A DNA stretch of 64,000 nucleotides. Source: Octopus vulgaris (Eukaryota). The notes under the pieces are model-generated. The model was not told the origin of the DNA, ran no database searches, and was given only the letters and a program-made list of their open reading frames with translations. The translations under genes were made by a program, and so were the position numbers. Positions 3,968-29,627 of this stretch are shown piece after piece (the stretch's first letter is position 1; each line of letters begins with the position of its first letter). The DNA lies in the NCBI GenBank assembly GCA_951406725.2, contig OX597839.1, positions 17,360,001 to 17,424,000 of the forward strand, read 5' to 3'.

Positions 3968-4224
3968 AAAACAAAATTTAAAGAATCGAGATTGAAACCC
4001 ATGTTTATCCTTGTGTTTACCTATGAAATATGAACATAATATATTTGCATATGTATGCCCATGGTTAAAAATAGGTAATATATTGGTAGTGTAATGGATA
4101 CTTCTATCCCTTAGTCATTTTAACCTCTAACTCAACTAATATACAATTGCAGCGTGGAAGGTGTTTATAAGCCATTTAAGAAACACACAAAAGCCGTTTG
4201 ATTCACTTCAACATTTAAGTTTAA

Positions 4225-4274
4225 TTTGTCAAAATATTTTCGTCGCTAAAATCCGCGACCTGTTCACTGACAAA
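4225..4274 (-). ncRNA. Minimal type-I hammerhead ribozyme motif, G3-C8 core variant
   Basis: Minus strand TTTGTCA|GTGAACA|G|GTCGC-GGATTTTA-GCGAC|GAAA-ATAT-T-T|TGACAAA: perfect 7-bp stem I, 5-bp stem II, perfect palindromic stem III AAUAUU, 1-nt insertion after A9. Confidence 0.7.
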
Positions 4275-4428
4275 GTCCGTGCTGCATCTCAACTAATATA
4301 TATATATATATATGTGTGTGTGTGTATAGATATATATGTATTATGTATGTATAGTGTGTTAGAAGTGGGGTCCAGGTATTGAATATTGAGAAAAGAGGAG
4401 TTCACCAGAATTTTTTATATAGTCATTA

Positions 4429-26879: not shown

Positions 26880-27062
26880 CATAATGTGACCGCGTGTGTA
26901 CAGTTGGCGATTTTTTCCTTCGGTCTTCCCTTCTTTGGATCTTTCCTTTTCCTATGTTTCTGACGAAGAGCTCCGCTCGAAACGTTAAACCCTCCTTCTT
27001 TCCTATCTTCCTGGGCATCCAATAATACTATATTTGTTCCACGTCCTCGCGTTGTGTTTTCA
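26880..27062 (+). mobile_element. Short CpG-rich (TA)n-flanked element carrying a hammerhead (Penelope-like pLTR remnant)
   Basis: Bounded by TA/TG microsatellite; contains the hammerhead at 26956-26990. Confidence 0.6.
26956..26990 (+). ncRNA. Minimal type-I hammerhead ribozyme motif, canonical C3-G8 core
   Basis: GTTT|CTGACGA|A|GAGC-TCC-GCTC|GAAA-CG-T-T|AAAC: 4-bp stem I, 4-bp stem II, palindromic stem III ACGU, GUU triplet. Confidence 0.7.
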
Positions 27063-27730: not shown

Positions 27731-28171
27731 ATGTTTCTCAAATTCATTTCTGTGTTCTACCTACCTGTAATAATTTTTTTCTTTCTTTCTGACTTCATGG
27801 CGAGATGGTTCTTACTATTTTTTTAAACACCTTCTTTTCCTACTATATCCCTTTCTTTTCTTCATCCTCCTATCAGAATATAAATATTCTTTTTGCTATT
27901 TCTTTAACAGTTTCCTATCATTTATCCGCCAGCATTCCTCCACCATCCCTATCATTGCTTTATCTTGTCACTATTTTTATTTTTCTATCCTGATTATTGA
28001 ATTCGTTCCCTTCTCACATTTATTCTCACAATTATTTAAATTTTCCTTTTTTTGTTTCTTGACTTTTTTAACTGCCAAAAACATGTTTACATATTTACAC
28101 ATACATACACACATACACAATTATTTTGTTTATCCTTATTTGAACTGATAAAGTATAGTTTGACGATATAC

Positions 28172-29627
28172 AGTCAACTATCGCCCAATCTCACTCACCT
28201 CCCACATCATTAAAGTGTTTGAAAGAGTGTTAAGATCAAGGATAGCTGACTTCCTGGAGACCCACAAACTCCTAAATTCAAATCAACATGGCTTTCGCTG
28301 TGGCAGGGACTGTCTAACACAGCTCTTACACCACATTGAAGATGTACTCAAAGCCTTGGGAACAGGTTCGAACTCTGACGTCATATACCTTGACTTCAGT
28401 AAAGCGTTCGACAGGGTAGACCATAACATCCTACTCTCAAAATTGGCAAATGTTGGAATCCGTGGAAAAGTTCTACACTGGATTCAGTATTTCCTAGCGA
28501 ATAGAACACAACATGTTGTAGTTGATGGAGTCCACTCAAACCCAGCAAAAGTCACCAGCGGTGTTCCCCAGGGAACTGTTTTGGGTCCGCTACTCTTCAT
28601 AATTTATGTAAACGACCTTTCCAGTGTCGTACATCACTGCAAAGTGAAAATATTCGCTGATGACACTAAGCTCCAGCAAATCGTCAATGAAGAAGCAGAC
28701 CGAACCTCAACTCCAGTCTGACCTATATGCTGTGAGTCAATGGGCAGACAGAAACAAAATGCAACTGAATGAGGGAAAATTTGAGCTGATGCATTTTGGA
28801 AGAAATTCCTCACTAAAACAACCATACTCTCTTCCTTCAGGGGAACCGCTCACAGCCTCTAACAATATCAGAGACCTGGGTGTAATTGTTGATGACGATC
28901 TCAGTTGGAGTGCACACATCAACAAGAAGGTCGATACAGCTCGTAGGATGAGTTCCTGGATCTTAAGAACTTTCCGGTCCAGAGAACAAGGTGTCATCAT
29001 ACCACTTTTTTCATCCTTTGTACGGCCACACCTCGAATACTGCTGCCCACTGTGGTCTCCTCACACAAGACAAAACATCTCCAGAATTGAGTCACCCCAG
29101 AGGGCTCTCACTAAACAAATTGAAGGCATGGCTGCTCTCGACTATTGGGATCGCCTTAAAGCCTTGAAACTTTACTCCCTCCAGCGTCGCCGTGAGCGGT
29201 ACATCATTTGTACGATGTGGAAAATATACCGCCAACTTTGCCCAAACGACCTAAACATTAGCTTCAAGGTTCATCCGAGACTTGGACCACGGGCTATACG
29301 TCCGCTGCCAAATTCAAGATCACAACATACATGTACACTGCAACATAATTTCTTTTCCTCAACAGGCCCTGCCCTATTTAACATTGTCCCGAGGGAGATC
29401 AAAGAGGAAAAGGATCCCATCAACTTCAAACAGAGTCTGGATGGATTCCTTCAAAGAATACCAGACAAGCCACCCATAATTGGATACAACTCACCCAACA
29501 AGAACTCACTACTTGAACAAAACTTGACTTAAACAGGATTCGAATAATCCTATCAGGTGGTGCTATTAAGTTAGACATGGCCTGGACCAATCTCTGGTCG
29601 AAACATATCTAAGTTTATCTAAGTTTA
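28172..29627 (+). mobile_element. 5'-truncated CR1-type LINE (ORF2 RT and C-terminus, 3' UTR, short tandem tail)
   Basis: NYRPISLTSHIIKVFER start at 28176; YLDFSKAFDRVDH, SGVPQGTVLGPLLF, FADD, RDLGV, VRPHLEY, SLQRRR motifs; 3' stem-loop GACCA-ATCTC-TGGTC (29585-29599); (TATCTAAGTT)2 tail. Confidence 0.92.
28176..29532 (+). pseudogene. LINE reverse transcriptase reading frame with a single +1 frameshift
   Basis: Track ORFs 28215-28721 and 28660-29532 join if one base at 28704-28706 is removed (..EEADR/TQLQSDL..); no other stop seen. Confidence 0.88.

What the first reader, a model, noticed from the sequence alone, without database searches (positions are those of the whole stretch)
4225..4274. 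G3-C8 inverted-core hammerhead with perfect stems and a UUU triplet
This is the cleanest fold in the window: 7-bp stem I, 5-bp CpG-rich stem II and a perfect 6-nt palindromic stem III. It has a swapped G3-C8 pair, a G inserted after A9 and an unusual UUU cleavage triplet. A standard CUGANGA search would miss it. Intact CpGs suggest a young copy.
Basis: partly seen in the sequence, partly recalled or inferred. Interest (0 to 1): 0.72.

Follow-up and report, generated by a model that had tools for sequence, protein, structure and literature searches.

The report
Swapped-core hammerhead in Penelope retrotransposon stump
This is a 145-base dead stump of a jumping gene present in thousands of copies, carrying a hammerhead RNA motif whose paired core letters are swapped relative to its sister elements, which likely makes it a slow, partner- or protein-assisted self-cutting RNA, though no cutting has been shown.

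Summary
The fold is real. Minus strand 4274-4225 is a complete type I minimal hammerhead with G3-C8, an extra G after A9 and a UUU site; Rfam misses it and chance gives 0.01 per shuffled window. It is the pseudo-LTR ribozyme motif of a young Neptune-like Penelope retrotransposon (at least 6,905 copies; RT + GIY-YIG ORF found). The window copy is a solo 5'-truncated stump with a 13-nt target duplication. Three homologous sister families keep C3-G8, so the swap is a natural compensatory double change, kept in old and young subfamilies. U17 is ordinary in these motifs (24 of 56 published examples). Against a needed activity: none of 100 copies begins at the cut site, and a sister family spread with A9 replaced (92 of 100). 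Most copies begin about 15 nt upstream of the motif, often with an extra G, suggesting run-off cDNA from a capped transcript. This scan found the same motif four times before on other DNA. New variant of a known kind; cleavage untested.

The parts
4144..4290 (-). 5'-truncated solo copy (pseudo-LTR, no tail) of a Neptune-like Penelope retrotransposon
   Evidence: 97-99% identical to copies across G000; long copies continue upstream into a 1-kb UTR and an RT + GIY-YIG ORF
4225..4274 (-). Type I minimal hammerhead motif, G3-C8 variant
   Evidence: sequence and descriptor; fold
4261..4267 (-). Core positions 3-9 with G3 (4267) and C8 (4262)
   Evidence: 97 of 104 sampled copies with both positions are G/C; sister families C/G
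4242..4260 (-). Extra G after A9 (4260) and stem II with variable loop
   Evidence: loop differs between subfamilies while stem stays; A-U to G-C compensatory pair against sister families
4232..4241 (-). GAAA, 6-nt palindrome and U17; predicted cut between 4232 and 4231
   Evidence: sequence; cut site inferred from hammerhead numbering, not shown
4144..4175 (-). First ten codons of the element's long reading frame, cut off by the 3' end of the copy
   Evidence: (L082 frame runs on into the RT ORF)
4131..4143 (.). Target-site duplication, copy 1 (13 nt)
   Evidence: identical to 4288-4300
4288..4300 (.). Target-site duplication, copy 2; its last three bases overlap the element's 5' end, next to a (TA)n tract

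Best explanation
The motif is the pseudo-LTR hammerhead of a young Neptune-like Penelope retrotransposon, with G3-C8 where homologous sister families have C3-G8, and it is likely a slow ribozyme that would cut after U17 only as a double hammerhead or with help from the element's protein. SHOWN: the fold; membership of a 4.26-kb element (pLTR, RT-linker-GIY-YIG ORF, 1-kb UTR, pLTR, optional tail); the swap against sister families; two 3' ends; clustered 5' ends; inserted copies span the cut site intact. INFERRED: the 3:8 pair still forms and places the G8-equivalent 2'-OH, as in engineered C3G/G8C mutants; the palindrome pairs between two hammerheads of a tandem transcript; U17 made the swap tolerable because C17 would lock G3 into a Watson-Crick mispair; the window copy arose by target-primed reverse transcription that began at the short internal site in the ORF start and ran off the 5' end of an uncut, probably capped RNA about 15 nt upstream of stem I; this solo copy is dead.
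For: 6,905 pattern matches, backward control 0. 20 of 20 EN-anchored long copies carry UTR + motif. 1,025-residue open frame with RT motifs, CX3CX2C linker and Pfam GIY-YIG. L326 is a tandem with two same-strand intact motifs 4,261 nt apart (1 of 20 junction copies). pLTR sequence downstream of the motif aligns to three C3-G8 families, 0 of 1,000 shuffles each; on an 11-row alignment the 3:8 pair is C-G in 8 rows, G-C in 2, unpaired in 1, covariation score 0.277 against 0.172, 0 of 500 shuffles (not independent events). G3-C8 in 44 of 45 young-loop and 51 of 58 old-loop copies with both positions covered. 30 of 31 head-to-head pairs have one tailed and one short arm (23 of 24 after merging 8 pairs from one event), matching the two initiation sites shown for anole Poseidon (PMC11167929). 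Engineered C3G/G8C partly rescues a PLE hammerhead, which needs its protein. G3-C8 is reported less active with C17 (PMC3884650, data not shown); computed P(3:17 paired) 0.98 with C17, 0.67 with U17, 0 with A17. G before the 5' end in 15 of 25 short copies against 1 of 39 long copies; 8 of 13 without an HHR-bearing inverted partner.
Against: No cleavage, and no raw RNA reads, were seen. 100 of 100 listed copies keep the two U's before the cut site and 90 keep the whole upstream 8-mer, so cut RNA left no footprint. Sister family B expanded to 3,456 matches with intact ORFs while 92 of the first 100 have C at the invariant A9: in this clade a canonical core is not needed to spread. Nearest-neighbour energy of the double hammerhead (-27.2) is above two wobble-closed monomers (-29.4 kcal/mol). 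An extra G after A9 strongly impaired a viroid hammerhead (PMC3705267). Conservation among dead copies is only inheritance. Clade assignment rests on motifs, not on an RT tree. The extra 5' G can be target- or partner-derived in some copies, including this one; the same site also looks like a 3' splice acceptor.
Confidence: 0.66

Rival explanations
1. Vestigial hammerhead: it descends from a ribozyme but no longer cuts; the sequence is kept in the master lineage for another role at the element's 5' end (internal promoter, splice acceptor context, protein binding) or by short evolutionary time.
For: No copies start at the cut site; sister family B thrives with A9C; hammerhead mutants did not affect insertion in vitro and no reads ended at the site in anole; unfavourable dimer energy and G3.U17 wobble; G at the extra position.
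Against: Two separate transversions restore exactly the 3:8 pair, all other core positions are canonical, the palindrome is perfect, and the loop changed between subfamilies while core and stems did not.
Confidence: 0.27
2. The 150/205-nt unit is an independent non-autonomous element (retrozyme or SINE-like) that is cut and circularised by the ribozyme and copied by the Penelope protein; religation would explain intact cut sites.
For: Sharp common 5' end and two fixed 3' ends in most copies; terminal stretches can pair; animal retrozymes are proposed to derive from pLTRs (bioRxiv 10.64898/2026.07.22.740005).
Against: No head-to-tail arrays in the loci examined; unit ends do not coincide with the cut site; sequence is identical to the pLTR of ORF-bearing copies and includes the ORF start.
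Confidence: 0.06
3. Chance hairpin that resembles a hammerhead.
For: No Rfam hammerhead match; other G3-C8-type patterns outside this family occur only at background (604 against 650).
Against: Descriptor chance 0.01 per window; homologous position in sister pLTRs holds canonical hammerheads.
Confidence: 0.01

Closest known systems
Minimal type I hammerheads in pLTRs of metazoan Penelope-like elements (Cervera and de la Pena 2014, PMC4209133)
   Same: pLTR location, extra nucleotide after A9, G10.1-C11.1, short palindromic helix III, NUH site with frequent U17, inverted neighbours, thousands of solo copies
   Different: G3-C8: 0 of 56 examples in their Fig. S3 (53 C3, 3 U3); extra nucleotide is G (1 of 56; their consensus is H); helix I is longer (7 bp)
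Anolis Poseidon (PAc) hammerhead and internal RT initiation (Frangieh 2024, PMC11167929)
   Same: Motif at the pLTR-ORF junction, two 3' ends defining a tail, uncut RNA as template, AT-rich targets; their engineered C3G/G8C double mutant equals the natural state here
   Different: Here the swap is natural; ORF has the Zn-finger-like linker (Neptune/Nematis type); motif lies upstream of the start codon; tail is about 55-58 nt
Natural U3-A8 core covariants (Perreault 2011 PMC3088659; Schistosoma Cercyon PLEs)
   Same: Natural compensatory exchange at 3:8
   Different: Those keep pyrimidine-3/purine-8 through transitions; this is a purine/pyrimidine inversion through two transversions
Neptune-clade EN+ PLEs (as described in Craig 2021, PMC8557442)
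   Same: C-terminal GIY-YIG, CX2-5CxxC linker, (TA)n targeting, tandem and inverted pLTRs, tail
   Different: DKS in place of the DKG motif; no tree against reference clades was built
Animal non-LTR retrozymes
   Same: Short unit with a type I hammerhead, PLE-related
   Different: No tandem arrays seen; unit is continuous with an autonomous element

Membership tests
PLE minimal type I hammerhead | Helix I closing a junction with helix II and GAAA...UH | tested here: met
PLE minimal type I hammerhead | Literal CUGANGA core (C3, G8) | tested here: not met
   G3 and C8
PLE minimal type I hammerhead | Watson-Crick complementarity of positions 3 and 8, other core residues canonical | tested here: met
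   G-C here, C-G in sister families
PLE minimal type I hammerhead | Extra nucleotide between 9 and 10.1 (consensus H) and G10.1-C11.1 | tested here: inconclusive
   Present but G; 1 of 56 published examples has G; G10.1-C11.1 in 11 of 11 rows
PLE minimal type I hammerhead | Palindromic helix III for dimer pairing and two copies on one transcript | tested here: met
   6-nt palindrome; tandem L326; not possible for the solo window copy; dimer energy marginal
PLE minimal type I hammerhead | Self-cleavage after H17 | not testable with these tools
   Only contigs, no raw RNA reads; genomic copies show no cut footprint
EN+ Penelope-like element (Neptune-like) | Single ORF with RT and C-terminal GIY-YIG | tested here: met
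   (RT recognised by motifs and homologs; Pfam hit only for GIY-YIG)
EN+ Penelope-like element (Neptune-like) | CX2-5CxxC linker | tested here: met
   CX3CX2C upstream of the endonuclease
EN+ Penelope-like element (Neptune-like) | Tandem/inverted pLTRs, optional tail, (TA)n targets | tested here: met
   62 of 121 copies in head-to-head pairs; 54 short and 64 tailed ends; 79 of 121 followed by (TA)n
EN+ Penelope-like element (Neptune-like) | Placement in the Neptune clade by RT phylogeny | not tested
   No reference clade sequences were at hand
Non-LTR retrozyme | Head-to-tail tandem repeats, one hammerhead per unit | tested here: not met
   None in the loci examined; not surveyed genome-wide
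Non-LTR retrozyme | Circular RNA | not testable with these tools
   Contigs only

The most novel reading that the evidence does not exclude
The first natural purine-3/pyrimidine-8 hammerhead: an active G3-C8 ribozyme fixed by a double transversion in a U17 background, in a clade whose sister lost A9, giving a natural series (canonical, swapped, broken) to test whether Penelope hammerheads matter. Its thousands of stumps would also be a fossil map of the element's capped transcript start and of a protein-gated ribozyme that stays uncut during reverse transcription.
Probability: 0.3. Interest if true: 0.62.

Novelty: new variant of a known kind. Interest (0 to 1): 0.42.

Why it matters
If active, it widens the natural hammerhead core beyond C3-G8 and U3-A8 and shows that CUGANGA descriptors and Rfam miss whole high-copy families. 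The clade offers a ready comparison of canonical, swapped and A9-broken motifs on homologous elements, which makes the open question of what Penelope hammerheads do directly testable. The window copy itself is an ordinary dead stump.

Tried and rejected
Rfam at E <= 1 (window) and E <= 10 (4130-4296): no hammerhead family; miRNA hits are microsatellites. Other G3-C8 families with a different stem II: background only, 604 against 650; seven loci inspected showed no stem I. Sequencing runs: no RNA holder listed; runs guessed as RNA are contigs and showed no splice joint or usable ends, no evidence either way. Empty-site allele: no joint across the insertion in four contig sets, uninformative. 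Shared first exon upstream of short copies: only two low-complexity matches to the UTR, so splicing as the cause of the common 5' end is not supported, though not excluded. A possible older bridging family (L222: C8, sister-type loop) matched only itself. NCBIfam: no hit. No other ORF-bearing Penelope piece in the window. Papers not held: Lunse 2017, Przybilski and Hammann 2007, Nelson and Uhlenbeck 2008. Searches for octopus hammerheads and for natural G3-C8 found no report; PMC6155905, PMC6466107 and PMC11014351 passages added nothing.

Full report
OBSERVATION. The fold has z = -3.4. A descriptor allowing any Watson-Crick 3:8 pair finds only this site in the window, against 1 hit in 100 shuffles. 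Rfam reports no hammerhead at E <= 10.

WHAT IT IS. The stretch 4144-4290 is a repeat: 2,358 first-look candidates, best copies 97-99% identical; 6,905 matches to stem I-core-stem II with positions 3 and 8 left open, backward control 0, 95 of the first 100 G3/C8. It is flanked by a 13-nt duplication (4131-4143, 4288-4300) and is the only copy in the window. Four of the 30 best loci ran upstream into a shared region that in two of them reached a GIY-YIG frame. All 20 endonuclease-anchored loci that I fetched (20 of 41 hits) carry ORF end, about 1 kb of UTR, the motif and often a tail. L087 holds a 1,025-residue open frame (its first ~27 residues come from an inversion junction) with RT motifs, a CX3CX2C linker and Pfam GIY-YIG. 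In L082 the frame begins inside the short unit; in the window its start codon is 4175-4173. Of 20 copies with the exact tail-to-ORF junction, one (L326) is a full tandem with two intact same-strand motifs 4,261 nt apart and an interrupted ORF. The nearest named protein is labelled Octopus vulgaris and is encoded in G000 at 99-100%, so the host is likely an octopus. Coded runs of four organism labels hold the stretch and showed no listed variant at 4267 or 4262 (contigs, weak evidence).

COPY ANATOMY. In 121 copies sampled by position on the first 36 Mb of C1 (selected through core patterns, so copies cut inside the motif are under-represented; 16 of them come from one amplified event), 3' ends are bimodal (54 short, 64 tailed, 3 other), 79 are followed by (TA)n, 62 lie in head-to-head pairs, and 30 of 31 pairs have one short and one tailed arm. 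This matches the PLE tail and two reverse-transcription start sites (PMC11167929, parts 1-2 of 4 read; PMC8557442, passages). 5' ends cluster: 63 begin within -6..+5 of the site 13 nt before stem I, 42 at +12..+23 (many are alignment-end effects of the older subfamily or inversion junctions), 7 later and only 9 extend 16 nt or more upstream. The base before the common start is G in 15 of 25 short copies and 1 of 39 long copies (Fisher p = 2.7e-7), and 8 of 13 without an HHR-bearing partner (p = 5e-4 against an assumed 17.5% G). Untemplated 5' G is attributed to copying of the cap in L1/SVA (PMC3287187, passages). I infer run-off from a capped RNA. The site also resembles a splice acceptor, as in D. 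virilis Penelope (PMC4209133; PMC2377424 passages), but no shared first exon was found and the contigs showed no joint.

THE SWAP. G000 holds 19,664 canonical-core matches (control 1,454). Three families among them share the pLTR downstream of the motif with ours (0 of 1,000 shuffles each) and one has an ORF 55% identical over 815 residues. They have C3-G8; on a hand-picked 11-row alignment the pair is C-G in 8, G-C in 2, unpaired in 1, with further two-sided changes in stems I and II. The swap is one event, inherited: 44 of 45 young-loop and 51 of 58 old-loop copies with both positions (67 old-loop copies, 9 lacking position 3), while the loop changed. Direction (C3-G8 to G3-C8) is inferred from the canonical state elsewhere. 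No second G3-C8 family was found.

MECHANISM. Engineered C3G/G8C partly rescues cleavage in general (PMC8495972, one passage) and in the anole PLE hammerhead, which cut only with its protein, and whose mutants still inserted. Minimal PLE hammerheads cut weakly and only as dimers or with helix III extended. G3-C8 was noted to work better without C17 (PMC3884650, passage, data not shown); folding gives P(3:17 paired) 0.98 for C17, 0.67 for U17, 0 for A17, and one C3-G8 sister already has U17 and the same inner stem I, so U17 may have permitted the swap (inference). I therefore expect slow, dimer- or protein-assisted cutting.

AGAINST. Of 8,004 matches to the sequence 3' of the cut site, all of the first 100 keep the two preceding U's and 90 the whole 8-mer; 1 of 121 sampled copies began at the site and is explained by microhomology. 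Sister family B spread with C at position 9 in 92 of 100 listed copies (7 A, 1 T). The double hammerhead (-27.2) is less stable than two wobble-closed monomers (-29.4 kcal/mol), tertiary contacts ignored. An extra G after A9 was detrimental in a viroid hammerhead (PMC3705267, passage; PMC1636495, passage). No cleavage or expression evidence could be obtained.

COMPARISON AND NOVELTY. It works like, and by position and homology belongs with, the minimal type I hammerheads of PLE pLTRs, but fails the literal CUGANGA test. In Cervera 2014 Fig. S3 (supplement file 2, parts 1-2 of 3 read; file 1 not searchable) 0 of 56 examples have G3, 24 have U17 and one has UUU, by my count. Perreault 2011 (section 8 and passages; its supplements not seen) reports natural U3-A8 only. 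Text searches for G3-C8, G3C8, GUGANCA, C3G/G8C and octopus hammerheads found no natural case, but Lunse 2017 on PLE hammerhead variants is not held (title seen only in reference lists) and could hold one. The retrozyme preprint (10.64898/2026.07.22.740005, part 1 of 5) defines tandem units, not seen here. The scan's notes list four earlier findings of this motif, two in this genome; they agree with a reading I had reached before looking and are not independent support.

VERDICT. Observation confirmed; new variant of a known kind; catalysis plausible (about 0.65) but unshown and probably not required for insertion. Interest 0.42.

Noticed in passing
L173-L182; e.g. L177 minus strand: Sister Penelope family B (protein P0001, about 55% identical over 815 residues) is young with open frames up to 1,312 residues, yet 92 of the first 100 of 3,456 motif matches have C at hammerhead position 9; older copies have A.
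   Followed up: partly
G000: 19,664 canonical minimal-hammerhead core matches (backward control 1,454) from many families; one family dominates.
   Followed up: partly
long copies, e.g. L087 2760-2727 minus: Branch-point-like motif, pyrimidine tract and YAG directly before the common 5' end of short copies; resembles the intron end next to the D. virilis Penelope hammerhead. No spliced form was seen.
   Followed up: partly
L044, L046, L271, L272, L275, L276, L279, L297: One inverted pair with shared flanks occurs eight times in 36 Mb, so it was amplified inside another repeat.
   Followed up: partly
window 4287-4264 minus: A 7-codon upstream frame whose stop is core U4-G5-A6; the frame differs in the older subfamily, so probably incidental.
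   Followed up: no
window about 26950-27000 plus: A canonical-core minimal hammerhead-like motif of another repeat family.
   Followed up: no
window 28164-29532 plus: Frameshifted LINE-type reverse transcriptase fragment (recognised from motifs, not searched).
   Followed up: no
L222 (G000:C1 near 2,348,340): Single decayed copy with C8 but a sister-type 6-nt loop; groups with the window family in a short-alignment tree.
   Followed up: partly
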